A DNA stretch of 64,000 nucleotides from Luteolibacter sp. (GTDB taxonomy: Bacteria > Verrucomicrobiota > Verrucomicrobiia > Verrucomicrobiales > Akkermansiaceae). The DNA is taken from positions 8,071 to 72,070 of the forward strand of contig JBBARN010000007.1 of the NCBI GenBank assembly GCA_040399845.1, read 5' to 3'. The notes under the pieces are model-generated. The model saw only the letters and a program-made list of their open reading frames with translations, made no database searches and was not told the DNA's origin. A program made the position numbers and the translations under genes. Shown here piece by piece: positions 26,489 to 43,511 of this stretch. Positions within the stretch are counted from its first letter, which is position 1. Every line of letters begins with the position of its first letter.

Positions 26489-26665
26489 ACCGCTTGGTGC
26501 TCAGGAAGCTCGGTTTGAATCAACACAGGATTCTCGGACGGTATCACGATGCAACACGTTGATGAACAATTTCCGAGCAATTCAGCGCACTTCTGAATCC
26601 GCAAATCTTGCTTTTCCACCAGAAGAAACCAAGCCGCAAATCACTGATTGCCAACAAGTTCCAAC

Positions 26666-26712
26666 TGGTAGTCCCGACAGGAATCGAACCTGTACCTACG
26701 GCTTCGGAGGCC
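26666..26712 (-). tRNA. 3' fragment of tRNA-Arg(CCG), an att core rather than an intact gene
   Basis: Reverse complement GGC-CTCCGAA-GCCGT AGGT ACAGG-TTCGATT-CCTGT CGGGACT ACCA; no D arm or 5' acceptor strand upstream. Confidence 0.85.
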
Positions 26713-26811: not shown

Positions 26812-28053
26812 ATGAAAGATCCCGTCACGGTCTCCGAAGTTTCTCACCCGAAATGCTCTCATGCGTGCTTGTATCCAGGCGAGGATGGCAGACGCAAGCG
26901 GAAGTATTTCACCAACGAAACCGATGCCCTCGACTTCGCCAATAAACGGCGGGAGGAACTTGGCATCAACGGCTCCGCCTTCGGAACGATCAACGCCGAT
27001 GAACGCGCCGCGCTGGCATGCTGGCGAGCCTTCGCTACGGACCATGCCGCGCCCGACCTGCTGGTTGTTATCCGCCACTACGTCAAAGAGTGGAAGACCA
27101 AGAGTGGATCAGTGACCATCACCAAAGCACTCAAACGCTACGTCGAACACATCGAGGCGGAAGGCGCGAGCGACCGCCACGTCACCAGTGTCAAGAGCCG
27201 GATTGGTCGTCTCGTCACCGACCATGGCGAAAAGCTTGTCGCCAGTATCGACGAGGGCACGTTCGCCGACTGGCTCAACGGATTGCGCGGCACCCGTGCG
27301 GACAAGGCGGGTGACAAACTTACGCTCACCACGCGGGACAATCTCAAAAAAACCTGCCGCACGTTCTTCGCCTACTGCATAGGCCGCGGGTGGGCATCGA
27401 CCAACCCGGTCCCGTTAGCCTCCAAGAAGCAGACCCGCCAACACCGCATCGCCAAGCGCAAGGCACCAGCGATCATGCTGCCGGAGGATGTGAAGAAGTT
27501 CCTCCACAAGATCGAGGAAGTCGCCGCGCCCATCCTGCCGTTCTGGTTGGTCAAGTTCTTCGCCGGCATTCGCGATGCCGAGGCAGACCGGATGGATTGG
27601 AAAATGATCGATCTGAAGTCCGGCTTCATCCACCTGCCCGCCGCGATCACGAAAACTGGGGATGCCCGCAAGGTGAAGATCGAACCGACGCTTGCGGAAT
27701 GGCTGACACCGCTGGCCAAGAAATCCGGTCCCATCGCCCCAGCCACCACGCCTCGTCGCTACTGGTATAAGAAAGTCCTCCGCCACCTTCGCGCGCCGAA
27801 GACGAAAGGCGGCAAACCGCAGGTGTTCGTTTTTCCCTCTAACGCCGCCCGCCATAGCTTCGGGACCTATCACCTGTTTCACTTTCGCGATCCCGGCGAG
27901 ACGGCGATCCAACTTGGCCACAAAGGCAATCCGTCGATGCTTTGGGAGCACTACGCCAACTCGGCAGCCGAAGAGCACGCCGGGGCATTCTGGGAGATCC
28001 GCACGAGCAAGGAGAAGGTTGTGAACATCAGCAAGGGAAGGAGGACGGCGTGA
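26812..28053 (+). CDS. Tyrosine recombinase/integrase
   Basis: FFAGIRDAE (R), KTGDARKV (K), ARHSFGTY (H..R region), LGHKGNPSMLWEHY (H, Y). Confidence 0.9.
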   Translation: MKDPVTVSEVSHPKCSHACLYPGEDGRRKRKYFTNETDALDFANKRREELGINGSAFGTINADERAALACWRAFATDHAAPDLLVVIRHYVKEWKTKSGSVTITKALKRYVEHIEAEGASDRHVTSVKSRIGRLVTDHGEKLVASIDEGTFADWLNGLRGTRADKAGDKLTLTTRDNLKKTCRTFFAYCIGRGWASTNPVPLASKKQTRQHRIAKRKAPAIMLPEDVKKFLHKIEEVAAPILPFWLVKFFAGIRDAEADRMDWKMIDLKSGFIHLPAAITKTGDARKVKIEPTLAEWLTPLAKKSGPIAPATTPRRYWYKKVLRHLRAPKTKGGKPQVFVFPSNAARHSFGTYHLFHFRDPGETAIQLGHKGNPSMLWEHYANSAAEEHAGAFWEIRTSKEKVVNISKGRRTA

Positions 28054-28589
28054 GCGATTCCCTTGAAAAGAAAGTGCGGGCGATCTTCACGCCCGACTGG
28101 AGGCGTTTTCTAATGGCCAGCCTGCAGTTGCAGGAAATCGATATGCAACCACCGGTCACCGACAAGCGGCGAACCAAGAAGCAGGAAACCCTCACCAATG
28201 AAGAAAAGAGACTTCGCGCGGAAGCGATTCTCGCGTTCCAATGGAATGATATCGATATGATCATGCCCATCATCGAGGATGCATTCACCCGCCGGGATCC
28301 AACGCCGTTTCTCATGCTGGCACGAGTAGCACATGAACTTGGGACTATCCCCAGCGAAACCAAAAAACGCGTGAAACGTGCCCTGGAAGCGGAAATACGA
28401 CTGCTGAACAAGATGGAAAGAATTCCAACGAAACAGGAAATCCAGGAGGAAAGCGGAATGAAGATGGAGCCGCAGCGATGGACTGAAATTCACAAGGCGG
28501 CCGGCCAGGCGAAAAACCCCACCGGCAAGCCCAAGCGCGGGCAGGAAAGGCGCGGCGGCATTGGGCGGAAAAAGCTACCGCTGAAGTAA
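28050..28589 (+). CDS. Hypothetical protein, possible C-terminal DNA-binding helix pair
   Basis: GTG start overlaps the integrase TGA; basic C-terminus. Confidence 0.55.
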   Translation: MSDSLEKKVRAIFTPDWRRFLMASLQLQEIDMQPPVTDKRRTKKQETLTNEEKRLRAEAILAFQWNDIDMIMPIIEDAFTRRDPTPFLMLARVAHELGTIPSETKKRVKRALEAEIRLLNKMERIPTKQEIQEESGMKMEPQRWTEIHKAAGQAKNPTGKPKRGQERRGGIGRKKLPLK

Positions 28590-28650
28590 CGGCAATTTTC
28601 CTGATACGCCGTTACGACATAGGGTCGCACCGGGGCGCACGCTCTGCGCC

Positions 28651-28863
28651 ATGCTTGCAAACGCACAACTTCTGACGCGCCGGGAGGCCGCTGAATGCCT
28701 CCGCCAATCCGTCCGCATGGTGGACATGCTGATCGCCTCCGGGGAACTGCCCGCTGTCCACATTGGACGATCCGTCCGCATCCGCCCGTCCGCCATCGAG
28801 TATTTCATCTCGGCGCGGGAATCACGGACCAAGATCAAGATCAACCGGAGGGCACGGTCATGA
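28651..28863 (+). CDS. Excisionase-type HTH protein (Xis/AlpA-like)
   Basis: LLTRREAAECL...GELPAVHIGRSVRI pattern of excisionase HTHs. Confidence 0.85.
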   Translation: MLANAQLLTRREAAECLRQSVRMVDMLIASGELPAVHIGRSVRIRPSAIEYFISARESRTKIKINRRARS

Positions 28864-28937
28864 ATAGGGTAACCACCGCAGCCAGCGCCAACGATGCGTC
28901 TGGTTTCCACCACTCACCCCGAAATTGAGACCGACCG

Positions 28938-31220
28938 ATGGCCCGATACAAATCATCTACGGTTACTGCGCCGCTGCCGCAGCGCACGCTCGATTACCTG
29001 GAGCGTGGTGCGCCCGAGGGTCAGCGCAACGCCGAACTCTTTGACGCCGCTTGCCAGATGCGCGACGCCAGCCAGTCCATCAAGGAGGCCGAGTCCAACT
29101 TGGTGGCGCGCGCCGTCGCCGATGGATTGAGCGATGCCGAGGCCAAGAAGACTATTCAATCCGCTTACAACCACGCGGCCCGTGAGCCGGTGTCACTGGC
29201 TGCGGAGGGTCCTACCATCCCTCCGGAGCCGCGGTGCGTCACCAGGATGCCTGAGCCGATCAACTCTGGATTGCCAATGCTTCTAGCCACCTGCTTCCGT
29301 CCCGACGAGTTCGTCGCTATTGCTCCTATGGCCGAGGATCTTGGTGGTGAAGTCGCACCGCGTCGTGGCGTAACACTCACCGCGTCCGTGTGGGAATCCA
29401 AGATGGCCACCAAGGGCGGAATCGAAAAGGTTTTCGGCACCAAGCTCTGTCTGTTCATTCGGATCAATCCGATGATCAAGGACGGGGCTAAAAACGAAGA
29501 CGTCACCGCGTTCCGCCATGTATTGGTCGAGTTCGACTGCGACAAGGACGGCAATGTGATTCCCAAGGAAAAGCAGTATCAGGCAATTCTCGACAGCGGC
29601 ATGCCGGTCGCCGTGTTGATCGACTCAGGCAACAAGAGCCTCCACGCATGGATCCGCGTCGATGCGCCCAATGCCGATGAATACAAGCGCCGTGTGGACA
29701 TCATCTGGAAGTATTTCGAAGGCAGGAATCTCGACAGGCAGAACCGCAATCCGAGTCGCCTCTCACGCTGCCCGGACGGCTGGCGCACCGTCGATGGAGA
29801 GGTTCGCCGCCAATCGTTGCTGGCCATGAATTTCGGAGCCGCATCATGGGATACATGGGAAACTGACCACGCCAAGGTCGATCCACCGTCTGGCTCTTCG
29901 TCTTTGAGTCCCTCGCCGTCCAGAAACGAAGCCATCGAACGGTTTTATTACGATGGCAACGCCCGCTTCCACCTCGATACCGGTGACACGCTTATCCCGT
30001 TGGACCTGCGCAGCGTCGAGAACCATCTCAAATCGTGGGGCATCACCGAAGGGAAATCGATTGCTGATATGATTTGTTCGATCCAGACCGGACGTTTTGT
30101 TCGGCGGACCGAGGATATTCACCGCTCGGGAGCCACAGAACTGCTTGATCGCGCCTATGCTTTGGCATTTGACCCGCAGCAGGCTCCCCCGGAAGACGAA
30201 CTTTGTCTGTGTCTCGGCGTCTACCCGGTCTCAGCCCGCGGCAACCTGACGTGTATCCAGGGAAAATCGAAGGTCGGGAAATCCGCCGTCATCGCCGCCA
30301 TTCTGGGTGCATGCCAACGTGGGAACTACGCATGTTCGGGCGATACCCTTTGCTTCGAATGGCAGGGCAACGACAGTGGCGCGATCATTCATTTGGATAC
30401 TGAACAGAGCGGCGGCGACTGGCATGCATTGGTCCGTCGTTCGGTGAAGCGTTCCGGACTGCCGGCTGTTTCAACAAGGCTTGTTTCCCTGCCGCTGGTT
30501 CGCTTTGCCAGAAGTGAGCGTCTGGCCATTCTTGAGCTGGCACTTGAAAAGGAACTTCAGCGGCAGGGCGGCATCGACATCGTGATCATCGACGGAGTTG
30601 CCGACTTGTGTAGCTCGCCGAACGATGAGGCCGAGTCGCTTGAGCTGATTTCCAGGCTGCACGCTCTCGCCCAAGAGTATCGCGCCGCCATCATCTGCGT
30701 GCTCCATGAGAATCCATCGTCGGTCGAGGGCAAAACGCGAGGCCACCTCGGCAGCGAGCTCAATCGCAAGGCCTTCGCCAACCTGAGAATCGAGAAGGAT
30801 CCGGAAAACTCGATCTCCACCATGTGGGGCATGGACATGCGCAAGCGGGACATCCCTCGTGAGCAGGGTTTCTGTTTCGCATGGGATGAGTCCCGCAAGA
30901 TGCACACCTACTTCGGCCGCTGGCTTTCCCTCAAGATAGACGCACGCAAGCAAAAGTCGGCTGACAACGCCCGTGAGAAGTGGACCACGATCTTTGCCAA
31001 AGCGGCTGAAAGCGGGACGGATGACTCGTGTCCTGTTCTATCGGCGGAGCAAGCGCTTCTGATCATGCGGGACATCGACGGGACAGAAAACACGCCCAAG
31101 GAAGAGACGGTCAAAAAGCAGATGCAGCGTGCTGAAGTCGTTGGTGTCCTGAGAAAAACGGAGCGTGGCAAGTGGGCGCTCAATCCATCGGGACAAACGG
31201 GACAAGATCAGGACACATAG
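28938..31220 (+). CDS. Primase-helicase (PriCT-like, RepB-like primase and AAA_25-like helicase domains)
   Basis: GQRNAELFDAACQ; RHVLVEFD, DSGNKSLHAW, NRNPSRLSRCP; GKSKVGKS Walker A, IIDGVADL Walker B, HENP. Confidence 0.8.
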   Translation: MARYKSSTVTAPLPQRTLDYLERGAPEGQRNAELFDAACQMRDASQSIKEAESNLVARAVADGLSDAEAKKTIQSAYNHAAREPVSLAAEGPTIPPEPRCVTRMPEPINSGLPMLLATCFRPDEFVAIAPMAEDLGGEVAPRRGVTLTASVWESKMATKGGIEKVFGTKLCLFIRINPMIKDGAKNEDVTAFRHVLVEFDCDKDGNVIPKEKQYQAILDSGMPVAVLIDSGNKSLHAWIRVDAPNADEYKRRVDIIWKYFEGRNLDRQNRNPSRLSRCPDGWRTVDGEVRRQSLLAMNFGAASWDTWETDHAKVDPPSGSSSLSPSPSRNEAIERFYYDGNARFHLDTGDTLIPLDLRSVENHLKSWGITEGKSIADMICSIQTGRFVRRTEDIHRSGATELLDRAYALAFDPQQAPPEDELCLCLGVYPVSARGNLTCIQGKSKVGKSAVIAAILGACQRGNYACSGDTLCFEWQGNDSGAIIHLDTEQSGGDWHALVRRSVKRSGLPAVSTRLVSLPLVRFARSERLAILELALEKELQRQGGIDIVIIDGVADLCSSPNDEAESLELISRLHALAQEYRAAIICVLHENPSSVEGKTRGHLGSELNRKAFANLRIEKDPENSISTMWGMDMRKRDIPREQGFCFAWDESRKMHTYFGRWLSLKIDARKQKSADNAREKWTTIFAKAAESGTDDSCPVLSAEQALLIMRDIDGTENTPKEETVKKQMQRAEVVGVLRKTERGKWALNPSGQTGQDQDT

Positions 31221-31925: not shown

Positions 31926-31953
31926 CGCCCAGACCTCGATTTCACCGGCTCAT
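31926..31953 (-). pseudogene. Possible relic of a HipA-family toxin N-terminus
   Basis: ATG overlaps the stop of the upstream XRE gene; removing one base gives MSREIEVWA, then similarity is lost. Confidence 0.3.
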
Positions 31954-32276
31954 GGCTGGGACTTACGTTTCGGCGCGCGCCGCCGTGTTTGACTCAGTCG
32001 GGCATCCTCCAGCTTGCGCCCCAGCACGTCGTCAGTGGCAACCTGAGAGAGGTCGGATTCGAGGCCCAATACCACGAGCACTTGCAGGAGCTTCCCAAGT
32101 GAAGTGCCCGACGATCCTTTCTCCATGAGGTGTAGCGTTGAGCGGCTGATACCAGCCCGCTCCGAGACCAAATCGGCGCTCAGCTGTCGCCGCAGCCGCG
32201 CCAACCGTAAGTTTTCTCCTATCTCGGCCAGCAGACGCCTGTGCTTGGGCAATAAGGTGGTGGTTTCTCTCCCCAT
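31950..32276 (-). CDS. XRE-family HTH protein (HipB-like antitoxin type)
   Basis: GENLRLARLRRQLSADLVSERAGISRSTL..MEKG HTH_3 pattern. Confidence 0.85.
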   Translation of the reverse strand: MGRETTTLLPKHRRLLAEIGENLRLARLRRQLSADLVSERAGISRSTLHLMEKGSSGTSLGKLLQVLVVLGLESDLSQVATDDVLGRKLEDARLSQTRRRAPKRKSQP

Positions 32277-32398
32277 AATGTTTGATACTCTGGACGAAAA
32301 ACTTACTTAATGTCTGAAATGTCAAACATTTTTGATCCGACATTTATTTAAGCTTCGATTGACCATCTGAAAATGACGATGCCAGATAGCGCCTTGAA

Positions 32399-32491
32399 CG
32401 CTTGAAATATCAGGCAATAGTTGGCTGAATGCATTGGTCGTGGCCAATTTTTGGATTATAAGGCCATTTACGCTTGAATTATCGAGCAATA
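32399..32491. promoter_or_regulatory. Two imperfect 21-bp direct repeats (putative operators)
   Basis: CGCTTGAAATATCAGGCAATA (32399-32419) and CGCTTGAATTATCGAGCAATA (32471-32491), 18/21 identical, each with a TTG-N10-CAA dyad. Confidence 0.5.
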
Positions 32492-32556
32492 TGACGATGA
32501 TTTAGCCACTCTTTCCCAAAGGATTCAGATTCTATCCCTTTTTCGCCTGAAAAATC

Positions 32557-32799
32557 ATGCAAACCGAGCAATTGGCTTCCTTAATCAGCTGGCATCGCCG
32601 TCGGGCGGGGCTGAGTCAGGTTGAGCTTGCCCGCCATGCCGGAGTGAGCCGATACGTGGTGCAGGATCTGGAGGCTGGGGCAGGTCGGACCACTTGGGCA
32701 CGGATGCTGCCGGTCCTTCACGCCTTGAATATCCAACTCGTGCCGCAGGGACCGCTAGTGGATGAATGGCTTTCGGAGACGAAGGAGGCTGGATCATGA
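32557..32799 (+). CDS. HipB-like HTH regulator
   Basis: RRRAGLSQVELARHAGVSR...LEAG; first gene of a three-gene coupled operon. Confidence 0.82.
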   Translation: MQTEQLASLISWHRRRAGLSQVELARHAGVSRYVVQDLEAGAGRTTWARMLPVLHALNIQLVPQGPLVDEWLSETKEAGS

Positions 32800-33134
32800 A
32801 CCCGCAACGCAGGGCCATCATTCGCCAGCACAACATCCCGGCCGGTCATCTGGCCGAGTTGGCCACCGGTGGTTGGGGCTTCACTTACATGCCGGGCTAC
32901 GATGGCCCACCGGTGTCGCTGGCGCTGCCGGTGCGGGATGAGCCTTGGATTTTTGCGGATTTTCCGCCGTTTCTGGAAGGCTTGCTACCGGAGGGGCCGC
33001 AGTTGGAAGCCATCCTGCGCAAGCACAAGATCGACCGCGGCGATTGCTTTCGTCAGTTGATGGTTGTGGGGCAGGACGTCGTGGGATCACTCACGGTAGA
33101 GGAATGGTCGGCGGAGGAAGGAGGCGCGGAATGA
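32796..33134 (+). CDS. HipA N-terminal-like protein (HipS-like antitoxin)
   Basis: AG.L....G..FTY...Y.GPPVSLALP...FPPFLEGLLPEG...D.VG motif; ATGA overlap with upstream gene. Confidence 0.8.
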   Translation: MNPQRRAIIRQHNIPAGHLAELATGGWGFTYMPGYDGPPVSLALPVRDEPWIFADFPPFLEGLLPEGPQLEAILRKHKIDRGDCFRQLMVVGQDVVGSLTVEEWSAEEGGAE

Positions 33135-34063
33135 ATATCTGCCCGATCACACTGGAACCAGCGGAAGGTGGCGGGCTTTATTCCCGAGCGGGCTTGCGAT
33201 CTGTGCATCCCCGTTTGGAAAATCTGCTGCCGTTGTATCTGACCCAGGAAGAACAACTCCGAGAAGCGCGGTTGCGTGCGGACAAGATGTCGATCCAAGG
33301 TGTGCAGCCCAAGCTTTCCGCTGTGCTCAAACCGAAGGAAGGCCGCTTCGAGATCGTGGATCGCGGTGGACAATTCATTCTCAAGCCCAACCCACCACCC
33401 TTCGAGGAAGTGCCAGCCAGCGAGGCCTTGACCATGACACTGGCGGAGATCGCCGGGCTCGAAGTGCCGCCTCATGGTCTGGTGCCTGCCAGCGACGGAT
33501 CATGGGTGTATTTCGTCCGGCGCTTCGATAGGGCTGATAGAAACCAACGGCTGCACCAGGAGGACTTCGCGCAGCTCACCGGAGCCGTGCGAGATACCAA
33601 ATACAACAGCTCGCTGGAGCAGATCGCCAAAGTGGTGGAAACTCACTGCACCTTTCCGGCCATCGAGAAAGCCAAGCTCGCGCGCCTGCTGCTGTTCTGT
33701 TTTTTAACCGGAAACGAGGACATGCACCTGAAGAATTTCTCGCTGGTGGTCCGGAAGGGCGTCGTTTGCCTGTCGCCCGCCTACGATCTGCTCAACACCA
33801 CGCTGGTCCTGGGCAATGCATCCGAGGAAAGCGCACTGCCACTGCGGGGCAAAAAGCGCAAACTCACCCGAAGCGACTGGGTGGATTACCTCTGCCGCGA
33901 GCGGCTGGGGCTGCCCACCGCGATCCTCGATCCCATCCTTCACACTCTGGATGCCTCCCGGGATGCGTGGGTTCAGAAAATCGAAAACTCCTATCTCTCC
34001 GCTCCTGCCAAGGCCGGCTACTTGGAAATACTGAACGACCGCCGCTCGCGGTTGTTCGGTTGA
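33131..34063 (+). CDS. HipA-family kinase toxin (HipT-like)
   Basis: MSIQGVQPKLS, FILKP, RRFDR, GNEDMHLKNFSL and LSPAYDLL motifs; ATGA overlap. Confidence 0.88.
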   Translation: MNICPITLEPAEGGGLYSRAGLRSVHPRLENLLPLYLTQEEQLREARLRADKMSIQGVQPKLSAVLKPKEGRFEIVDRGGQFILKPNPPPFEEVPASEALTMTLAEIAGLEVPPHGLVPASDGSWVYFVRRFDRADRNQRLHQEDFAQLTGAVRDTKYNSSLEQIAKVVETHCTFPAIEKAKLARLLLFCFLTGNEDMHLKNFSLVVRKGVVCLSPAYDLLNTTLVLGNASEESALPLRGKKRKLTRSDWVDYLCRERLGLPTAILDPILHTLDASRDAWVQKIENSYLSAPAKAGYLEILNDRRSRLFG

Positions 34064-34081: not shown

Positions 34082-34360
34082 TCAATACTCCTCGGGGAGC
34101 ATGACACAGGTCGAGGCCCGGTCCCATTCGGTGATGATGTAGATGCGCCGGCCTCCGCCGAGCTTGTAGTAGCTGAGGATGCGGTCGCCGTGGATCAGGG
34201 CATCCTCGTTCGCCTGCTTGTCGCATTCGTCGAGATCACCCCAATCGCCGCAGTGGTGGCGGTGCATGTAGGATGCCAAGTCGATTCCGAGTGCCATCGC
34301 TCCGGGTGTAGCCACGGTTTTCCCGAGCGGGAAACGCGGTTCCATGATTCGGTATGCCAT
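34082..34360 (-). CDS. Conserved mobile-element hypothetical protein
   Basis: FPLG.TVATPGA...RH..GDWGDL...D...NE.AL..G.RILS.Y...IYIITE.DR..T...LPEEY pattern typical of plasmid/ICE small proteins. Confidence 0.75.
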   Translation of the reverse strand: MAYRIMEPRFPLGKTVATPGAMALGIDLASYMHRHHCGDWGDLDECDKQANEDALIHGDRILSYYKLGGGRRIYIITEWDRASTCVMLPEEY

Positions 34361-34366
34361 GGCCGT

Positions 34367-34645
34367 TCAGTCGTTGGTGGTCCCCCATTCCGGATGGCGC
34401 TTGCCGGTGGCGATCAGGCCAGAGGCGAGCATGTCTTCGACCAGTGCCTTCGGCGGCCACTGGCGATGCGGTTTTCCGGTCTGCATCTTGGACGCTCGTG
34501 CTGTGGCCCGACAGTAGGATGGCAGGTCGGCTTCCGGGTTGAAACTGTCGGCCCGCAGTTGGGTCATCAGGTCGGTGGCATCGGTGGCGGAGAATGTCGC
34601 GCCGTCGATGGTGTGGTATTCGGTGTTCATGGTGGTCATTGTCAT
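34367..34645 (-). CDS. Hypothetical protein
   Basis: Tightly spaced in an operon downstream of the amidoligase. Confidence 0.6.
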   Translation of the reverse strand: MTMTTMNTEYHTIDGATFSATDATDLMTQLRADSFNPEADLPSYCRATARASKMQTGKPHRQWPPKALVEDMLASGLIATGKRHPEWGTTND

Positions 34646-34654
34646 TGGTGGAAA

Positions 34655-35461
34655 TCAGGCGGCCAGTTTTTTGGCGCGGGCGGTATAGAATTTGGTGAGC
34701 CCCCTGGCGTCGATGGATTGGAAGAACCACTTCATGCGGTTCATCCCGAGGCCGGTGTCCACCGGGCGGTTGCGGACAGTGGCGGCGGCTTCGGCGGCAT
34801 CGAACATGCGGGCCATCAGACGCACCCAGTTGGTGATCTTAGAGGGATCAGTGGTTCCCGAGTGATGGCGGACCTCCAGCGTTTGGTGGCGGAAGTAGGA
34901 TTGGATGTTCAGCTTTCGATAGCGGCAGGGGTAGAGCTGCTTCATCTGATCCATGTTCCGGCAGGCGTCGATCTTCTGAAAGACCCGGTAGCATTGGCCT
35001 CTGTGATCCTCGCTATCAGAAACGCCGCCCTCAAGGTTCGTGCGGCAGTAGGTGTTGTTGTTGCCCCGGCGTGACTGCGGCTGGAACGTGTCCAGAACAT
35101 CCTCGAATTTGAGCCAGAGCTTGAAGAGATTCTTCACCGCTTTGAGATTCATCGAGCGGGCGTCGAAATGGACGTGAAGTCCGCAGCGCTTGTCCACTTG
35201 GGCACCAGCGGCTTCGAGTGCGGCGGCGGCGATTCTGACTTCCTCGATACCGGCCTCACCTTCGAGAACCGGTGAAACGAGTTCCAAACCGCAGGAGCCG
35301 TCGGTTACGATCTTCCAATACGGAGTGGTGTCGTGGGTGTAGTAGGAGGATTCGACCCGGATGCCTGCGGCTCTCAGGCCCATGACGGCCTGCTCTTTGG
35401 TGATGGTGGAGAGGAATTCAATCTCGACTCCGAAGCGGCGGGACATCAATGGCGTTGTCAT
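34655..35461 (-). CDS. Putative amidoligase (Amidoligase_2 / COOH-NH2 ligase family)
   Basis: RFGVEIEF, WKIVTDGSCGLELVSPVL, CGLHVHF, RYRKLN and EVRHHSGT motifs; ATG 35461 follows the repeated motif. Confidence 0.85.
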   Translation of the reverse strand: MTTPLMSRRFGVEIEFLSTITKEQAVMGLRAAGIRVESSYYTHDTTPYWKIVTDGSCGLELVSPVLEGEAGIEEVRIAAAALEAAGAQVDKRCGLHVHFDARSMNLKAVKNLFKLWLKFEDVLDTFQPQSRRGNNNTYCRTNLEGGVSDSEDHRGQCYRVFQKIDACRNMDQMKQLYPCRYRKLNIQSYFRHQTLEVRHHSGTTDPSKITNWVRLMARMFDAAEAAATVRNRPVDTGLGMNRMKWFFQSIDARGLTKFYTARAKKLAA

Positions 35462-35466
35462 GTCTA

Positions 35467-35497
35467 TCATCTGCCAGATCGATACCAACTGTCCATG
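35467..35497 (-). promoter_or_regulatory. Repeated promoter-like motif, copy 1
   Basis: CATGGAC-N15-GGCAGATGA, 5 nt before the amidoligase ATG. Confidence 0.65.
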
Positions 35498-35621
35498 GCT
35501 TTCTATCCTTACTAACAAAAAGACGAAAGCCGCTTGATTGGCATTGATCGTGACGCTTAAGCACCGTGCCAATGTGGCATCTTTCGGAGATTCGATAACT
35601 CCGACAGAAAGACAAAAAAGA

Positions 35622-35652
35622 CATGGACAGTGGTGATGGGACTGGCAGATGA
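35622..35652 (+). promoter_or_regulatory. Repeated promoter-like motif, copy 2
   Basis: CATGGAC-N15-GGCAGATGA, 6 nt before ATG 35659. Confidence 0.65.
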
Positions 35653-35658
35653 GGGACG

Positions 35659-35877
35659 ATGAAAGGGACTGCCCACACTGGAAATGACACCACCTACGTC
35701 ACCGGAATGTTGGTCCTGATCCGCCCCGAGTGGGATGGAGACGAAACGCTTCATGTGATTGCCGAATGGAACGGCGACCGCGGATTCATCCGGCCTGTCG
35801 AATGGCCGCACGGCGGGATCATCCCGACCGAACTCGTCACCGCTGAGATGATCCAATCCGCAACCATAAACCCCTGA
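35659..35877 (+). CDS. Small hypothetical protein
   Basis: Directly follows motif copy 2. Confidence 0.6.
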   Translation: MKGTAHTGNDTTYVTGMLVLIRPEWDGDETLHVIAEWNGDRGFIRPVEWPHGGIIPTELVTAEMIQSATINP

Positions 35878-35884
35878 AAACACC

Positions 35885-36076
35885 ATGTACACCGCCAGTG
35901 AAATAGACGCCATGACCATCGAGGAAATCGAACAAGTCGCCGAACTGCTCACCGATGAAGCCCGCGAGGAATGGGCTGCCGCCGGATATTCCGGCGAGTC
36001 CTACTGCAATCTCGGAATGAACGACGCCGAGAAATCCATCAACTCCCCGACGAAGACATCTAACTCCAACCCCTGA
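35885..36076 (+). CDS. Small acidic hypothetical protein
   Basis: 7-bp gaps to both neighbours; strongly acidic. Confidence 0.55.
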   Translation: MYTASEIDAMTIEEIEQVAELLTDEAREEWAAAGYSGESYCNLGMNDAEKSINSPTKTSNSNP

Positions 36077-36082
36077 GATCCC

Positions 36083-36784
36083 ATGAAATCTGAATCAGAC
36101 ATCCTCGATAAAATCCGCAAACTCCTGCGACTGGCCGACCGCTCCCGCGGGTCCACCGAGAACGAAGCGAAAGTGGCGCTGGCCAAGGCGCAGGAATTGA
36201 TGACCCGCCACAACATCGACTCGGCGCTGCTCCGCATGGAACGTGGCGAATCGGGCGGCGCGGGTTTCACCGTCAACAAGGGCAAGGTCGATCTGCCGAA
36301 GACCCTCAACCCTGCCGACCTGATGATCCTCTCGATCCTGCAGGCGCACTTCAACGTGAAGACAATCCTGATGCCCAATGGTAGGGGAACTCCGGTGGAC
36401 ATCATCGGTGCCGCCGCCGACATCGACTTCGCAATCTACGCTTTCAACTACTTGCGGCAGACATTCTTCCGCTGTTGGAACGAGTTCAAACGGACCCACG
36501 CCAACCCGGACAAGGCATCTTACTACCGGGGCCTGCGCGACGGACTGAACTCCGAACTCAAGGCGGCGAAACAACGCGCCGAGCAATCCTACGCCGCCGA
36601 CCAGCGCCAGGCATACGGACTGGTCGTCGTGGATCAGGAAGCGGCGATCACCCGCTATGTCGAAGATGCATACGGCAAGCTCCGCACCCTTTCGCAACGC
36701 CGCCGCCACCTCCATTCCGGCAGCTACGTCGCCGGAGAAACCAAGGGTCGCACCATCCAAATCAACCGCCCACTACCATCATGA
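36083..36784 (+). CDS. DUF2786-like domain protein
   Basis: ILDKIRKLLRLA...ENEAKVALAKAQELMTRHNI N-terminal motif. Confidence 0.78.
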   Translation: MKSESDILDKIRKLLRLADRSRGSTENEAKVALAKAQELMTRHNIDSALLRMERGESGGAGFTVNKGKVDLPKTLNPADLMILSILQAHFNVKTILMPNGRGTPVDIIGAAADIDFAIYAFNYLRQTFFRCWNEFKRTHANPDKASYYRGLRDGLNSELKAAKQRAEQSYAADQRQAYGLVVVDQEAAITRYVEDAYGKLRTLSQRRRHLHSGSYVAGETKGRTIQINRPLPS

Positions 36785-36813
36785 AAATCATCCAACAGAA
36801 AGACGAAAAAAGA

Positions 36814-36844
36814 CATGGACGTGCCCGATCAGACGGGCAGATGA
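36814..36844 (+). promoter_or_regulatory. Repeated promoter-like motif, copy 3
   Basis: CATGGAC-N15-GGCAGATGA, 8 nt before ATG 36853; upstream ACAGAAAGAC(G)AAAAAAGA shared with copy 2. Confidence 0.65.
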
Positions 36845-36852
36845 GGGATGCT

Positions 36853-37083
36853 ATGACAACAATATTCATTTCTAACACCTATTTGAACAAGGCGATGCAG
36901 CGAAGTATTCGCGGTCTTGAGAGGAACGGCTTCACCGCCCGGCGCATCATGCCGGTCGATCCGATGGCCGGCATTCATGCCCGCGAGTTCCACGCCAACT
37001 TCGCCAAGCAAACTCCCACTGGACTGCTGGTGTTCAGCGTCCGGATCGACACCGACGGCAACGTCACCAACCCCAAACCATAA
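36853..37083 (+). CDS. Small hypothetical protein
   Basis: Follows motif copy 3; in frame with track ORF 36475..37083. Confidence 0.6.
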   Translation: MTTIFISNTYLNKAMQRSIRGLERNGFTARRIMPVDPMAGIHAREFHANFAKQTPTGLLVFSVRIDTDGNVTNPKP

Positions 37084-37089
37084 CCAACC

Positions 37090-37614
37090 ATGAAAAAACT
37101 GTATTGGATCGTCTGCGACGACAAGGATCATACCCTATTCGAAGGCCGCTATCAGGGTCGCACCCGCGGTGAGGCGCTGAAGTTCCTCAAACTAACCATC
37201 GGGCGAAAGAACCTCAATGGATTGGTCTTCACCATCACCGAAATCCCGGTGCCGCTGATCCGCGAAATCGTCGCGGAAATCCTCGCCGGTGGAGACGGGA
37301 ATAATGCCGCGCAAACCTCGAAGGTCGCGCCCATCACCGGGCCTGCGAAGGAGCCGCGATCTGAACGCTTCGATGCATTCGCCGACACTACAAGACCGCA
37401 GCCTGCGACCGCAAAGGCCAGAGCCCCTAAAGCCAAGGTGAAGTCGCCTAAACCCAGCATGAAGTCCTGCAACCCCGGCTATGGAGACGAGTTCTGGGCA
37501 CAGGTCCGCGCCTATTGGCGGGAATGCCGCAGCCTGATGAAAACAGCCAGGCAATTCAAACTTTCACCCAACACGCTGAAAACCCGCATCCGCAGGGAGG
37601 GCTGGAAACAATGA
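37090..37614 (+). CDS. Hypothetical protein with C-terminal HTH-like segment
   Basis: SLMKTARQFKLSPNTLKTRIRREGW resembles an HTH. Confidence 0.6.
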   Translation: MKKLYWIVCDDKDHTLFEGRYQGRTRGEALKFLKLTIGRKNLNGLVFTITEIPVPLIREIVAEILAGGDGNNAAQTSKVAPITGPAKEPRSERFDAFADTTRPQPATAKARAPKAKVKSPKPSMKSCNPGYGDEFWAQVRAYWRECRSLMKTARQFKLSPNTLKTRIRREGWKQ

Positions 37615-37946
37615 GTGCTCCCCATTGGATACCCACTGTCGGTGGTGGTGCGACAGTCTGCCACTACAGCGACCGGACCGCCTGCACCATCATCCGCATC
37701 AGTCCGAGCGGCAAAACCATCTGGATGCGGAAGGACACTGCCGTTCTCGACGACTGGAAATCCGAGTTCGTCGCCGGTGGATTCGCCGGCCATTGCGTGA
37801 ACAACACCGAGCAAGCTTACAAATACTCGCCCAATCCCGAAGGGGCCGTTCATCGCGCCAGCCTCCGCAAGGATGGTTGGTTCCGCACTACCAACGGCGA
37901 GCCGGTCATCCCCGGCCGCCGCCACTTCCACGACTACAACTTCTGA
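37611..37946 (+). CDS. Phage-type hypothetical protein
   Basis: ATGA overlap; VGGGAT...SDRTACTIIRIS pattern. Confidence 0.6.
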   Translation: MSAPHWIPTVGGGATVCHYSDRTACTIIRISPSGKTIWMRKDTAVLDDWKSEFVAGGFAGHCVNNTEQAYKYSPNPEGAVHRASLRKDGWFRTTNGEPVIPGRRHFHDYNF

Positions 37947-38185
37947 TGAAGGTCGAAGTCGAAAAATACCGCAAACCCGATGGCTACGCCACGCGCTACT
38001 GGTCGGTCGTGGTGGATGGCGAACTGCTCGCCGTCACCCTCTACCGCAAGGGCGCGGAGGCCGTCGCCCGGGCCATCACCAACACCAACTCAGATCCCCA
38101 TGTCACGTTCCTTGAAGATTCTGCCAACCCCGCCGCCACGCCCCACAAGCCCACCGCTGGCCTGGCGACCTACCGGACCCGATGA
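37946..38185 (+). CDS. Small hypothetical protein
   Basis: TGATG coupling; its 3' end overlaps the AAA gene start. Confidence 0.5.
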   Translation: MKVEVEKYRKPDGYATRYWSVVVDGELLAVTLYRKGAEAVARAITNTNSDPHVTFLEDSANPAATPHKPTAGLATYRTR

Positions 38186-38768
38186 CCTCTGCGGCTCAGC
38201 CGCTACCATCGCCGCCCGCCTGATCGCCAAAGCCCGCAAGCTCCACGACGATCCGACCGTCCCGTTGAAAATACTGCTCTACGGGCCGCCCGGTGTCGGC
38301 AAAACCAGCATCGCCGACATGGTGGCCGATGGGCTTTCCGGCACCCGCTTCGCCGTCGAAGAGTTCAACGGCAAGCTCGTCACCGTCGAGGTGGTGAAAC
38401 AGTGGATGGGCGCGCTCGGTGCCTGCTCGCTGTTCGGTGTCTATTCCGTGAAGATCATTAACGAAATGGACCGCTGCACGCGGGATGCACAGGACTTGCT
38501 CCTGATTTATCTCGACCGCCTGCCGCCAGGGCGTGCGGTGATCGGCACCAGCAACCTGCATCTCGACCTGCTCACCGAGCGGTTCCAGACGCGCTTCCAG
38601 TCGATCAAGCTCGCGGCCCCTTCCACCGAGGACATCGCCGACCTGCTCCGCCGCCACTGGCCGGTTGATCAGGCCACGGCACTCCGCATCGCGGTCGGCA
38701 GCGGTGGATCCGTGCGGGCCGCGCTTGCCGATCTGGAATCCTGGCTGGATGCGGAGGGACTGTCATGA
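38100..38768 (+). CDS. AAA+ ATPase, clamp-loader/RarA-like core
   Basis: LAWRPTGPDDLCG, GPPGVGKT Walker A, IINEMD Walker B, GTSN sensor-1, FQTRF and GSVRAAL motifs. Confidence 0.8.
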   Translation: MSRSLKILPTPPPRPTSPPLAWRPTGPDDLCGSAATIAARLIAKARKLHDDPTVPLKILLYGPPGVGKTSIADMVADGLSGTRFAVEEFNGKLVTVEVVKQWMGALGACSLFGVYSVKIINEMDRCTRDAQDLLLIYLDRLPPGRAVIGTSNLHLDLLTERFQTRFQSIKLAAPSTEDIADLLRRHWPVDQATALRIAVGSGGSVRAALADLESWLDAEGLS

Positions 38769-39250
38769 ATCAGGACGACATCACTCATTCACGACAGCCG
38801 ATCATCCTGCTTGATCTCAACTACACTCTCGTCGCCAACAGCCCGCTTCACGGTAGAGCACCCAAGCGCATGGAGAAACGCCTTGCCGATGAGCAATACC
38901 GCCAGTGGCTCGTCGATCTTGTTCGTCCCTACACCGTCATCTTGATGACCGCACGCCCGGGAACATGGATGATCAAAACCATCGACCGCATCGAGGATCA
39001 AACCGGCTGGCGACCACAGGACGCGTGCTTCGCGCCTAAAGGCTGGTGGAAGCCGCCTGCGATCAAACAGCACATGCTCATAAAGAATGTGTTCCCGATT
39101 CACGGCGAGGACGCCCGCTACATTGCGATTGAGAGCAATCCCCGGACCCGTGACATGTATGCCAAATTCGGCATTCCTTGTTTCTGGGTGATTGAGCAAG
39201 GCACCTGCCTGACCGAAGGAACGCGCATCGTCAAACGGGTGCCTCCATAG
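38765..39250 (+). CDS. HAD-superfamily protein (PNKP-phosphatase-like)
   Basis: ILLDLNYTLV motif I variant, MTARP motif II, IK, AIESN; ATGA overlap with the AAA gene. Confidence 0.65.
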   Translation: MNQDDITHSRQPIILLDLNYTLVANSPLHGRAPKRMEKRLADEQYRQWLVDLVRPYTVILMTARPGTWMIKTIDRIEDQTGWRPQDACFAPKGWWKPPAIKQHMLIKNVFPIHGEDARYIAIESNPRTRDMYAKFGIPCFWVIEQGTCLTEGTRIVKRVPP

Positions 39251-39575
39251 GCCCCTCACAGATGATGGTGTTACTTATCGTTTGATATGCAGAAGCCGGA
39301 CTGGTCGCCGAAGAAGCTGACCGTTATCTCTTCGATGCCGGCGACGGAACCGGCGCGAGAGTTGGCGGGCAAACCAATCTCGCCGACAAACATTCCGAAA
39401 TAGTCGCGACCCCGCGGGCGTTCTCATACAAAATGAAAGCGGAGTCTGCCGTAAGAATTCGGAAACACGGCCCCCGGCTCACTATTTCAAGAACCCGCAA
39501 AGTCTTTATTCCGTGGTGGACAGGGCCCACGACGGAATGTGAAGTAACCCACTCGATTCAAACGAAAACCAAAAC

Positions 39576-41516: not shown

Positions 41517-42935
41517 TCACTTCTCCGTCACCGGCCGGCGGATCGCCAGGGTGGGAGCAGGCAGGGTGGGATGGCGGCGGCTGGCAAAGCCATGGACCAG
41601 ACCGGTCGATGTGGTCTCCACCGTGTCGCGGGCGACGATCAGGGTGATCTTGGAGCCGGAGTTCTCGCGCAGAAACTCGGCCAGCAGCTCGCCCTGAATG
41701 CTGAAACGTCCCTGGTGCACCCCCTGCTTGACGACGAACTCGCCAACTTCCCGAACCTTGTCCATGTTCAAAATGGTGGGTTTCCCGGCTGCAGGCGCTC
41801 TCCCGGCTTTGATCATTCTATCATTCCAAGGGCTATCTACTAACAAGCCATAAACTTTGAAGGTGGCATCCGGCACATCGGAGGCAAGACCCAGACCCGT
41901 TGGTGCGAAATGAAGCGTCAATTCGGCATCCTCAATGTCACGACCGATTCCTGAGAGATCAAAACCAAGATAGGATTTACGGTCCGAATAGCCATTGATC
42001 GACTTTTTGACCAACAAGAGGGTTTCGGCACGGGGCACTGGGACGCCTTTATCGGTGGCATCGCCAATGTATGCATCTTTGTAGCTTGTGAGATTGGTCC
42101 ACTCCTCTCCTCGCATGGCTGGCCCAACTTTTCCGGCTTGCGAGGATTCCGGACTCCAGGGCCGGGCTTCTCCCATGCTGTTCTTATCGGCCGAATTCAT
42201 TTGTCCGGCCCTGAGTGCGACCACCACTCCCGTCGGTGGATGCTCGACTTCCACGAGGCCCTCGTGCACGTGGGTTTGAGTTCTTCCTGCGGCGGGATCG
42301 ACATTCACGGTGAAACGGGTTCCGAAGTCGATGACGTTGGCGGTTGATGTGGCAATGCGGAAACCAATTGCCGATTCGGGAACATCCGCCAACACGATTC
42401 CACTTCCCAAGATGCAGTTCATATCGTCAACGAGAGTCAGTTCGGCCGGTGCTTCGAGTGAAACTTGTGCGCCGGAGTCGAAGCGCAGCGTCACCAACCC
42501 CTCGGCGAGCCGCAAGGTTCCCTTGCTCAGGCGAGTGCCATCGCTGGTCGGTAAATCGCTACCATCCCAGCGGGCCGCACGGGAATCGACAAGAGTAGCG
42601 AATCCCCGGGGTGCCTCCGCTTGACGAGGCCAGAAGATGGACGCCGCGAGGGCAATGCATGCGGCGGCTGCCAAGCCCGCCATCGAGACCATGGGAAAAC
42701 GGGAAGGTTTACGGGGCTTATTGAGACCCGGAAGAAACTGCGTCACCTCGCCGGCGGTGTAGTCGAGGTGCAAGCTGGCGTGCAGTTCCATGTGTTCGCT
42801 GAAGAAACGGCGCGCATCGGGAGATGTCCTGAGCAATGCGTTGAGAGCCTCGCGGCCAGCATCGTCCAGGCTTCCATCCAGCACCTCGGCAAGAAGCGCG
42901 AGGAGTTGGGCTTGATCAAATTCGGAACGATTCAT
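41517..42935 (-). CDS. FecR-like anti-sigma factor with C-terminal DNRLRE/CBM-like domain
   Basis: N-terminal helical domain, TM, L.EG...LRFDSGAQVSLEAPA and IDFGTRF FecR motifs; KDAYI...RKSYLGFDLS C-terminal domain. Confidence 0.8.
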   Translation of the reverse strand: MNRSEFDQAQLLALLAEVLDGSLDDAGREALNALLRTSPDARRFFSEHMELHASLHLDYTAGEVTQFLPGLNKPRKPSRFPMVSMAGLAAAACIALAASIFWPRQAEAPRGFATLVDSRAARWDGSDLPTSDGTRLSKGTLRLAEGLVTLRFDSGAQVSLEAPAELTLVDDMNCILGSGIVLADVPESAIGFRIATSTANVIDFGTRFTVNVDPAAGRTQTHVHEGLVEVEHPPTGVVVALRAGQMNSADKNSMGEARPWSPESSQAGKVGPAMRGEEWTNLTSYKDAYIGDATDKGVPVPRAETLLLVKKSINGYSDRKSYLGFDLSGIGRDIEDAELTLHFAPTGLGLASDVPDATFKVYGLLVDSPWNDRMIKAGRAPAAGKPTILNMDKVREVGEFVVKQGVHQGRFSIQGELLAEFLRENSGSKITLIVARDTVETTSTGLVHGFASRRHPTLPAPTLAIRRPVTEK

Positions 42936-43450
42936 GGTGTGGCCTCCTCCAGTTTGGATTTGATGCAAATGCGGAGCACCTCACGGATGCGCATCATGGC
43001 CATCTTCAGCGCGCTTTCGTTTTTACCGTGATCCACAGCCAGTTGGCGGATGGGGATTTCCTCGCGGTAGCGTCGGTCGAGCAGTTGCCGGTGTTTATCG
43101 GGCAGGCATGCCAGACAATCGCGCAGGGCGAGCCGGCGTTCGTTTTCGTCCCGGGCGTCACCCGAGTCTTCGTCGGCGAGCAGGGCAAGCACGTCGTCGT
43201 CGAAGAGGTGGCGGTCGCGCTTGCGGTCGCGCAGGAAGGCGAGGGCTTGGTAGTAGGCGCACCTCCGAGCCCATGCGCCGAAGTCGGTCCCGGCCTCGAA
43301 ATCGCCCATCTTCCGCCACAGGACCAGATTGGTCTCCTGCAGCACGTCGCGGGCGTCATGGGTGTTGCTCAGCAGTGTCACCAAGTAGCCGAACAGGCGG
43401 TTCTGCCAGTCGGTCATTTGGAAAACGAATTCTTTGTCGGGTTGGGCCAT
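42932..43450 (-). CDS. ECF sigma-70 factor (Rhodopirellula/Verrucomicrobium type)
   Basis: DARDVLQETNLVLWRK region 2, LRDCLACLP...RIR.VLR.CI region 4; 4-bp overlap with the anti-sigma gene. Confidence 0.88.
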   Translation of the reverse strand: MAQPDKEFVFQMTDWQNRLFGYLVTLLSNTHDARDVLQETNLVLWRKMGDFEAGTDFGAWARRCAYYQALAFLRDRKRDRHLFDDDVLALLADEDSGDARDENERRLALRDCLACLPDKHRQLLDRRYREEIPIRQLAVDHGKNESALKMAMMRIREVLRICIKSKLEEATP

Positions 43451-43511
43451 GACGTCATGGATTGATACCGTGAAACCGCGCGGCGTCACATGATTTAATG
43501 ATTTTCTCCCA

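What the first reader, a model, noticed from the sequence alone, without database searches (positions are those of the whole stretch)
35459..36855. Three copies of a CATGGAC-N15-GGCAGATGA motif, each 5-8 nt before an ATG
Seen: copies at 35467-35497 (minus), 35622-35652 and 36814-36844 have identical 7- and 9-bp boxes, an exact 15-bp variable spacer and an A-rich upstream tract. Two copies are back-to-back. Inference: a dedicated promoter class (TGGAC as a -35-like box, non-canonical -10) giving leaderless or near-leaderless mRNAs, i.e. an element-specific regulon needing an activator or alternative sigma. The GAGGG after copies 2 and 3 could alternatively serve as an RBS.
Basis: partly seen in the sequence, partly recalled or inferred. 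Interest (0 to 1): 0.75.

Follow-up and report, generated by a model that had tools for sequence, protein, structure and literature searches.

The report
Phage-family promoter cassette, probably leaderless
The three repeats are real copies of a strongly conserved gene-start cassette, most likely a special promoter sitting right against the start codon, that a family of uncultured Verrucomicrobia phages and their small parasitic relatives place in front of many different genes; what reads it is unknown.

Summary
CATGGAC-N15-GGCAGATGA occurs exactly three times in the window and nowhere else in the 6.9 Mb genome. Each copy lies 5, 6 or 8 nt before an ATG.

The copies sit in a 5-kb module of an integrase/primase-helicase element in an Akkermansiaceae-type verrucomicrobial genome. 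The same cassette turns up at 272 sites in 123 related loci. These include 50-58 kb phages that carry terminase genes and small int-primase elements that do not. In every exact instance the spacer is 15 nt, and nearly all sites lie 3-8 nt before a start codon. At least 15 unrelated gene families follow it.

If transcription starts at the ATG, the boxes fall at -37..-31 and -15..-9, behind an A-tract. The cassette does not match the host's own TTGCC-N17-TA promoters, sigma-54, or a conserved Shine-Dalgarno, and it has no consensus fold. Divergent pairs can be only 41-44 bp apart, which leaves no room for separate promoters.

Best reading (about 0.6): a phage-family promoter giving leaderless or near-leaderless mRNAs, read with a dedicated factor that is still unidentified. 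A 35-bp palindrome lies between copies 1 and 2.

The parts
35467..35497 (-). Motif copy 1 (P1): CATGGAC-N15-GGCAGATGA, followed by TAGAC and the ATG of the amidoligase gene
   Evidence: orthologous sites in about 70 related loci, always 5 nt before the ATG
35622..35652 (+). Motif copy 2 (P2): followed by GGGACG and the ATG of a 72-aa gene
36814..36844 (+). Motif copy 3 (P3): in the 68-nt gap after the DUF2786 gene, followed by GGGATGCT and the ATG of a 76-aa gene
   Evidence: 68 orthologous sites, always 8 nt before the ATG
35606..35621 (+). A-tract AGAAAGACAAAAAAGA directly upstream of copy 2 (about -53 to -38 if the ATG is +1); UP-element-like
   Evidence: logo positions -16 to 0
36797..36813 (+). 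A-tract AGAAAGACGAAAAAAGA directly upstream of copy 3
35538..35572 (.). 35-bp palindrome TTGGCATTGATCGTGACGCTTAAGCACCGTGCCAA between copies 1 and 2; probable operator or upstream binding site, centred about 95-105 bp from either predicted start
   Evidence: 1-2 copies at this place in about 100 related loci, with fixed 23-nt inner spacing
34082..35461 (-). Leftward operon behind copy 1: Amidoligase_2 protein (34655-35461) and two 92-aa ORFs (34367-34645, 34082-34360)
35659..36784 (+). Rightward operon behind copy 2: 72-aa and 63-aa ORFs, then the DUF2786/DUF7168 protein (36083-36784)
36853..39250 (+). Rightward operon behind copy 3: 76-aa ORF, 174-aa protein with a C-terminal HTH (37090-37614), a ~111-aa ORF, AAA+ ATPase (37980-38768), HAD-like protein (38765-39250)
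37090..37614 (+). 'HTH174': the only DNA-binding candidate found with the motif in every element type (phage, window element, small int-primase elements, divergent variants)
26812..31220 (+). Backbone of the element: tyrosine integrase (26812-28053) and PriCT/AAA_25 primase-helicase (28938-31220); no terminase or structural genes in the element

Best explanation
The three copies are instances of a conserved promoter cassette. It belongs to a family of temperate phages of Akkermansiaceae-type Verrucomicrobiota, and to integrase/primase elements that share a gene module with them. The proposed anatomy is an A-tract at about -55 to -38, a -35-like box CATGGAC at -37 to -31, a rigid 15-bp spacer (with conserved CA at motif positions 17-18 and T at 22), a -10-like box GGCAGAT at -15 to -9, and a start codon 5-8 nt further on. 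Transcription would then start at the A of the ATG or within about 3 nt upstream of it, giving leaderless or near-leaderless mRNAs. Their CA-rich, G-poor first 30 nt would support ribosome loading without a Shine-Dalgarno. The cassette does not look like the host's housekeeping promoters, and the host genome has no other copy. RNA polymerase is therefore inferred to need a dedicated specificity factor, either a sigma or an activator bound over the -35 region, supplied by the element or by a related infecting phage. Copies 1 and 2 are additionally controlled through a 35-bp palindrome between them. What is shown: the sequence anatomy, its conservation, its uniqueness to the element, and its placement. 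What is inferred: that it is a promoter, where transcription starts, and the need for a dedicated factor.
For: The motif is unique to the element in 6.88 Mb and absent as an exact match from 400 other genomes of the phylum. It is present at the same positions in 42 protein-selected related loci and in 82 IMG/VR stretches, for 272 sites in 123 loci. All 230 exact instances have a 15-nt spacer, never 8-14 or 16-23. The start codon follows at +3, +5, +6 or +8 in 233 of 263 sites, in front of at least 15 unrelated protein families. The boxes are near-invariant while the spacer varies, and unselected flanking positions are also conserved (G-1, A0, C17, T22, T29, A35). Complete 50-58 kb phages carry only 3-4 sites, all within one 3-kb region. 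With the ATG as +1, TGGAC falls at -35 to -31 behind an A-tract. Divergent pairs can have only 41-44 bp between their 5' boxes, leaving no room for separate upstream promoters. The host pattern TTGNNN-N16-18-TA is found in 13 of 37 tRNA upstream regions against 4.8% background, but in only 1 of 84 motif sites. There is no consensus RNA structure (0 pairs). Nucleotides +4 to +33 of motif-driven genes are 73% A+C with 14% G, against 56% A+C and 27.5% G in gene bodies.
Against: The -10-like box has neither the A-11/T-7 signature of sigma-70 promoters nor the CGT of most ECF promoters, so no known sigma class is matched. No recognising factor was identified. The sigma-r4-like 186-aa protein of the phages keeps an invariant HTH in distant phages that lack the motif entirely. 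An ECF-like sigma occurs in only 4 of 25 phage records. The window's genome has neither protein. For copy 1 (5-nt gap) and copy 3 (8-nt gap), a fixed start distance from the -10-like box cannot put +1 exactly on the A in both, so at least some transcripts would carry a 1-3 nt leader or start inside the ATG region. Many of the sites are orthologous, so the counts overstate the number of independent observations.
Confidence: 0.6

Rival explanations
1. The cassette is an ordinary host sigma-A promoter, unusual in sequence but needing no dedicated factor, serving as a constitutive or early phage promoter.
For: Copy 1 scores 9/12 as TGGACA-18-GATGAT in the sigma-70 consensus scan. TGGAC resembles TTGAC, and the A-tract could act as an UP element that compensates for weak hexamers.
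Against: The host's own promoters keep TTG at -35 and TA at -10, and the cassette conserves neither. Conservation also covers positions sigma-A does not read (C1, A2, G23-C25). Copies 2 and 3 are not picked up by the consensus scan. Only 1 of 84 sites holds a host-type pattern.
Confidence: 0.12
2. The boxes are mainly an operator. A repressor or other regulator of the element binds CATGGAC and TGGCAGAT, possibly the same protein that binds the TTGGCA half-sites of the palindrome, and so occludes a weak promoter or the start codon.
For: The 3' box shares TGGCA with the palindrome half-site ATTGGCAYG. A palindrome lies about 40-57 bp from many sites.
Against: The two boxes are neither a direct nor an inverted repeat of each other. 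Copy 3 and most single sites have no palindrome nearby. The strictly directional placement 3-8 nt before start codons, with an A-tract upstream, is what a promoter needs and an operator does not.
Confidence: 0.12
3. The cassette acts at the RNA level as a 5'-UTR translation-initiation signal (a Shine-Dalgarno substitute or a site for a translational regulator), with the true promoters further upstream.
For: The distance to the start codon is fixed. GAGGG follows the box in the copy 2 and copy 3 classes. The genes in this element generally lack Shine-Dalgarno sequences.
Against: Divergent pairs with only 41-44 bp between the 5' boxes leave no space for upstream promoters. There is no consensus fold. 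GAGGG is not conserved across classes. The A-tract plus a box at -35 is DNA-level promoter anatomy.
Confidence: 0.1
4. The cassette is a recombination site at which gene cassettes are exchanged, which would explain why many unrelated genes follow it and share their first codons.
For: At least 10 unrelated families behind the motif begin with the same ~20 nt (ATGAAAGCAAACAC.., MKANTP).
Against: The slot has no recombinase and no second site flanking the cassettes. Shared ends are expected from ordinary homologous recombination at any conserved regulatory sequence. The feature does not explain the A-tract or the fixed distance to the ATG.
Confidence: 0.04

Closest known systems
Promoters of leaderless mRNAs (Actinobacteria, Deinococcus, phage lambda PRM-cI); from established knowledge
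   Same: A -10-type element ends about 6-8 nt before the start codon, no Shine-Dalgarno is required, and the 5' coding region is A/CA-rich. Downstream CA repeats are known to enhance translation of leaderless mRNAs in E. coli (own knowledge: Martin-Farmer and Janssen 1999).
   Different: Those promoters use the housekeeping TANNNT -10. Here the box is GGCAGAT with no conserved TA, and the start site is not mapped.
ECF (group 4) sigma-dependent promoters, GGAAC-N16/17-CGT type
   Same: Both are bipartite and strictly spaced, with a GGAC/GGAAC-like -35 preceded by A-rich DNA, and both define a small dedicated regulon. Some related phages do encode an ECF-like sigma.
   Different: There is no CGT/GTC -10 and no autoregulated sigma gene beside the sites. 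The phage ECF-like sigma is present in only 4 of 25 records and absent from the window's genome.
Phage middle/late promoter classes read with a phage factor and shared by helper and satellite (P2 Ogr / P4 Delta late promoters; T4 MotA-AsiA middle promoters; Mu Mor/C); from established knowledge
   Same: A few copies per genome are clustered at operon starts. The -35 region is non-host, so an activator is presumably needed. The identical promoter occurs in full phages and in small int-primase elements without structural genes.
   Different: The sequence is unrelated. Those promoters keep a host-type -10 and make leadered transcripts. No activator has been identified here.
Sigma-28 (FliA/SigD) -10 element GCCGATAA/GCCGATAT; from established knowledge
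   Same: GCAGATAT or GCAGATGA matches 6-7 of 8 positions, and the spacing to the upstream box is similar (about 15-16 nt).
   Different: The -35 TAAA is absent, the critical CGA core reads CAGA, and the host has no other site of this type.

Membership tests
Housekeeping sigma-70/sigma-A promoter of the host | -35 TTGNNN and -10 TANNNN separated by 16-18 bp | tested here: not met
   The host consensus was derived from tRNA genes: TTGCC/TTGAC-N17-TA in 13/37 regions against 4.8% background. Only 1 of 84 motif sites contains such a pattern.
Sigma-54 promoter | GG-N10-GC (TGGCAC-N5-TTGC) with the start about 12 nt after the GC | tested here: not met
   Taking TGGCAG as the -24 element, the -12 position reads AC or AT, not GC (logo positions 35-36). 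The start would also fall inside the ORF. CATGGAC gives no GC at +10 either.
ECF sigma-dependent promoter | GGAAC-like -35, CGT/GTC-like -10, 16-17 bp apart | tested here: inconclusive
   The -35-like GGAC and the rigid spacing fit. The -10 GGCAGAT has no CGT.
ECF sigma-dependent promoter | A cognate sigma gene co-occurring with (usually next to) its target promoters | tested here: not met
   The window's ECF/FecR pair lies outside the element and has no motif. The phage ECF-like sigma P0001 is in 4 of 25 phage records and not in this genome.
Leaderless-mRNA promoter | -10-type element ending about 5-8 nt before the start codon | tested here: met
   233 of 263 sites have the start codon 3-8 nt after the 31-mer.
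Leaderless-mRNA promoter | Transcription start coincides with the A of the AUG | not testable with these tools
Structured cis-regulatory RNA | Conserved secondary structure with covariation | tested here: not met
   RNAalifold on 12 diverse sites gave 0 pairs and 0 kcal/mol.
Phage satellite (P4-like / PICI-like), for the window's element | Integrase plus own replication gene, no terminase or structural genes, with sequence or regulatory links to a helper phage | tested here: inconclusive
   Integrase and primase-helicase are present, and the element has no terminase or capsid homologues. It shares a 5-kb module and all three promoters with 50-58 kb phages. No second att site was found, so a decayed or chimeric prophage is not excluded.

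The most novel reading that the evidence does not exclude
The cassette is a new promoter class, with a non-sigma-70-like -10 box, a rigid 15-bp spacer and leaderless output, read by an as yet unrecognised specificity factor. It is shared, together with a 35-bp operator, between complete temperate phages and small integrase/primase elements that lack structural genes. Some of those elements are inserted into the phage's own HTH174 gene. On this reading the small elements, and the window's HipA-carrying island, are satellites or phage-triggered islands wired into the helper's transcription programme by promoter identity.
Probability: 0.3. Interest if true: 0.65.

Novelty: new variant of a known kind. 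Interest (0 to 1): 0.45.

Why it matters
Little is known experimentally about transcription signals of Verrucomicrobiota or their phages. I found no paper describing this motif or these phages, and no GenBank phage matches the region. A compact, portable, strongly conserved cassette of promoter, start codon and first codons would be a ready-made expression part for Akkermansiaceae-type bacteria. It would also be a marker for finding this phage family and its satellites in metagenomes. If it really gives leaderless mRNAs from a non-canonical -10 box, it would extend the known range of bacterial promoter recognition. Its sharing between full phages and int-primase elements offers a testable case of satellite-helper regulatory coupling outside the Proteobacteria and Firmicutes.

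Tried and rejected
- **Sigma-54 reading of either box:** rejected because there is no GC at -12 and the start would be misplaced. The palindrome's half-site ATTGGCAYGnnTCnTG also looks sigma-54-like but has C at the -12 position in only 8 of 162 half-sites.
- **Sigma-28 reading:** only the 3' box resembles it.
- **Host ECF sigma at 42932-43591 as the reader of the motif:** it lies outside the element and has no motif.
- **Sigma-r4-like 186-aa phage protein as the specific recogniser:**
  - For: Foldseek gives weak but consistent sigma domain-4 hits, and it sits at the end of the early operon just before the module.
  - Against: its HTH is invariant in distant phages whose whole records lack the motif, and it is absent from the window's genome.
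- **Phage ECF-like sigma P0001:** present in only 4 of 25 records.
- **HTH174 covariation with box variants:** only three lineages are available, so the test is suggestive at best. Its fold search was uninformative apart from a confident C-terminal three-helix bundle.
- **Profile searches of both candidate families:** nothing against the PDB. PHROGs, searched with one member of each family plus eight other small proteins, matched only the HAD-like protein.
- **RNA structure:** none.
- **Exact-protein look-ups:** these found only two short Logan contigs, which do not bear on start sites.
- **GenBank phages:** no match.
- **My own de novo search for alternative motifs in distant phages:** too insensitive to use, since it missed even the window's three copies.
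- **Earlier scan notes:** only first-reader notes were available.
Full report
**Observation.** The pattern CATGGAC-N15-GGCAGATGA matches exactly at 35467-35497 (-), 35622-35652 (+) and 36814-36844 (+). Allowing two mismatches adds nothing in the window. Dinucleotide-preserving shuffles expect 0.05 matches, and none of 100 shuffles reaches three. In the whole assembly (6.88 Mb, 384 contigs) these are the only exact copies. Looser forms such as TGGAC-N14-16-GGCAGATGA or TGGAC-N17-CAGATGA recover only the same three. The next ATGs lie 5, 6 and 8 nt downstream. Copies 2 and 3 also share the upstream AGAAAGAC(A/G)AAAAAAGA tract and the GGGA after the box.

**Context.**
- The host is a verrucomicrobium of the Akkermansiaceae type. 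The closest loci come from MAGs labelled Haloferula, Luteolibacter, Akkermansiaceae and Verrucomicrobiaceae.
- The copies lie in an element that starts near a tRNA 3' fragment (about 26660-26705; ARAGORN finds no intact tRNA in the window).
- The element encodes a tyrosine integrase (26812-28053), a PriCT/AAA_25 primase-helicase (28938-31220), an XRE-type HTH (31950-32276, -) and a HipA-like kinase (32945-34063).
- A 5-kb module follows. It holds a leftward Amidoligase_2 operon behind copy 1; rightward 72-aa, 63-aa and DUF2786/DUF7168 genes behind copy 2; and a 76-aa gene, a 174-aa protein with a C-terminal HTH ('HTH174'), an AAA+ ATPase and a HAD-like protein behind copy 3.
- The ECF sigma/FecR pair at 41517-43591 lies beyond the element among host genes.

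**Comparative evidence.**
- A protein search with the DUF2786 gene fetched 42 related loci from verrucomicrobial genomes. Nearly all carry the motif at the same places: a divergent pair, plus a copy before the 76-aa gene homologue. The boxes are conserved and the spacers differ.
- A pattern scan of IMG/VR gave 82 stretches, many with 3-4 copies.
- Over 123 loci I counted 272 sites. The start codon of an ORF of at least 40 aa follows at +3, +5, +6 or +8 in 233 of 263 cases. The downstream proteins fall into at least 15 unrelated families.
- All 230 exact instances have a 15-nt spacer; no other spacing from 8 to 23 nt occurs in 1.1 Mb. The viral loci were selected with N15, but the 42 genome loci were selected by protein.
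- The logo of 84 distinct sites shows conservation beyond the selected positions: A-tracts at -16 to -2, then G-1, A0, T16, C17, A18, C21, T22, T29 and A35.
- Variants of the 3' box (GGCAGATAT, GGCAGATCA, GGCAGATGT, GGCAGAGCG) keep GGCAGA. More distant phages keep GGCAGAG with a changed 5' box: CATAGAC in L223/L224, and ATTACTCT shifted 3-4 nt upstream in L222.

**What the elements are.**
- Complete relatives are 50-58 kb temperate phages, with CheckV completeness of 87-100% as reported by the tool. They carry GpA-type large terminase, structural genes, DNA polymerase A and helicases.
- They hold only 3-4 motif sites, all within one 3-kb region. This region lies between an early replication operon (DEAD helicase, primase-helicase, a 186-aa sigma-r4-like protein, a DUF1016-like protein, a nuclease) and a long rightward operon running through ParB-like and methyltransferase genes into the terminase genes.
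- The window's element shares only the 5-kb module with these phages. It lacks terminase, structural genes and the 186-aa protein.
- A second, smaller element type has a single motif copy and no structural genes: int, AlpA-like, primase, palindrome, motif, DUF2786, HTH174.
- In two loci (L038, L083) such an element is inserted after codon 6 of a phage's HTH174 gene.

**Why a promoter, and why probably leaderless.**
- If the A of the ATG is +1, TGGAC of copy 2 lies at -35 to -31, the A-tract at about -53 to -38, and GGCAGAT at -15 to -9.
- In five loci (L050, L063, L065, L067, L093) the 5' ends of the divergent pair are only 41-44 bp apart. The whole intergenic region then consists of two cassettes back to back, with no room for other promoters.
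- Twelve diverse sites have no consensus secondary structure.
- The GAGGG that could serve as an RBS is absent from the whole copy-1 class and from several other variants.
- The first 30 nt after the ATG are 38% A, 35% C and only 14% G, against 27.5% G in the bodies of the same genes. That composition fits translation from an unstructured 5' end.
- At least ten unrelated families share the first ~20 nt (ATGAAAGCAAACAC.., MKANTP). Either this stretch is part of the functional cassette, or the conserved cassette serves as a recombination anchor, or both.

**Why not the host's housekeeping sigma.** Upstream of the genome's tRNA genes I find cTTGCC/TTGACA-N17-TAnnnn followed by a GC-rich discriminator. 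The pattern TTGNNN-N16-18-TA occurs in 13 of 37 such regions against 4.8% of random 90-mers, but in only 1 of 84 motif sites. The cassette conserves neither TTG nor TA. Only copy 1 scores in a sigma-70 consensus scan, as TGGACA-18-GATGAT with 9/12. The host genome has no other copy, which argues against a host alternative sigma with its own regulon.

**Who reads it: unresolved.**
- *The 186-aa protein.* The model is modest (pLDDT 69). Its best Foldseek hits are sigma factors and isolated sigma domain 4, for example 3vfz_B with TM 0.71 over 66 columns, but all E-values are at least 0.1. Its position at the end of the early operon recalls late-gene activators. However, its recognition helix (TRAAVSKRCV) is invariant down to 39% identity, in phages whose whole records lack the motif.
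- *The ECF-like sigma.* G403 encodes one (P0001, with weak Sigma70_r2 and HTH_8 hits). Only 4 of 25 phage records have it, and the window's genome does not.
- *HTH174.* This is the only DNA-binding candidate present in every motif-bearing element type, and it is itself always downstream of a motif copy. That would fit autoregulation but proves nothing.
- *An infecting relative.* A factor supplied in trans by a related phage is equally possible for the window's element.

**The palindrome.** Between copies 1 and 2 lies TTGGCATTGATCGTGACGCTTAAGCACCGTGCCAA (35538-35572).
- Related loci carry one or two such 35-bp palindromes at this place. Of 122 matches, 106 lie within 300 bp of a motif site, and 101 have exactly 23 nt between TTGGCA and TGCCAA.
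- The half-site logo is ATTGGCAYGnnTCnTGa.
- Its centre lies about 95-105 bp from either predicted start. It is most simply the site of a dimeric or tetrameric regulator of the divergent pair.
- It resembles a sigma-54 promoter but lacks the -12 C. Copy 3 has no such site.

**Comparison with known systems and novelty.** The cassette works like a promoter for leaderless mRNAs, and like the dedicated middle/late promoters that some phages and their satellites share (P2/P4, from established knowledge). It fails the membership tests for sigma-A, sigma-54 and sigma-28 promoters and only half fits ECF promoters. No GenBank phage matches the region. PHROGs, searched with one member of each candidate family, and PDB profile searches of both family alignments gave nothing for the candidate regulators. 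I found no paper on these phages or this motif. I class it as a new variant of a known kind: a phage-family-specific promoter.

**Limits.**
- All functional statements are inferred from sequence anatomy and conservation.
- Many sites are orthologous, so the counts are not independent events.
- The boundaries and status of the window's element (satellite, chimera or decayed prophage) are not settled, because no second att site was found.

Noticed in passing
window 35538-35572: A 35-bp palindrome TTGGCAYG-N19-CRTGCCAA lies between the divergent motif copies. It is conserved in one or two copies, with fixed spacing, in about 100 related loci. Its half-site looks like a sigma-54 -24/-12 element but lacks the -12 C. 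It is probably the binding site of an unidentified regulator.
   Followed up: partly
L038 7014-7031 and L083 8921-8938: An int-AlpA-primase element is inserted exactly after codon 6 (ATGAACAAACTGTATTGG) of a phage's HTH174 gene. This suggests the small elements can integrate into the prophage itself, at a sequence they also carry.
   Followed up: partly
L243 (G403:33648-34241) and homologues in G401, G406, G407: Some complete phages of the family encode an ECF-like sigma of about 190 aa (weak Sigma70_r2 plus a C-terminal HTH) at the head of the replication operon. Most relatives and the window's genome lack it.
   Followed up: yes
related loci, first 20 nt after motif copies (e.g. L085, L047, L056): At least ten unrelated protein families behind the motif begin with the same ATGAAAGCAAACAC.. 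(MKANTP). The slot between copy 2 and the DUF2786 gene is hypervariable in gene content.
   Followed up: partly
window 26660-26705: The 3' part of a tRNA gene (minus strand) lies next to the integrase. No intact tRNA and no second repeat were found in the window, so the element's right end (about 39250-39570) is not defined by an att repeat.
   Followed up: partly
window 31950-34063: An XRE-type HTH gene and a HipA-like kinase gene stand where complete phages carry the sigma-r4-like, DUF1016-like and nuclease genes. This is a toxin-like cargo in the element.
   Followed up: no
L161-L162 (G403:19312-28738): The complete phage G403 carries three very large ORFs (1021, 1001 and 909 aa) and an SMC/AAA_23-type ATPase between its structural and replication regions. 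These are possibly defence or counter-defence cargo. Only the AAA_23/SMC-type ATPase (G403:30917-32809) was run against Pfam; the three large ORFs were not annotated.
   Followed up: no
genome contig C243: A second, more divergent copy of the HTH174 and AAA+ genes (30% and 63% identity to the phage proteins) sits on a small contig of the same assembly. It has no exact copy of the motif.
   Followed up: no
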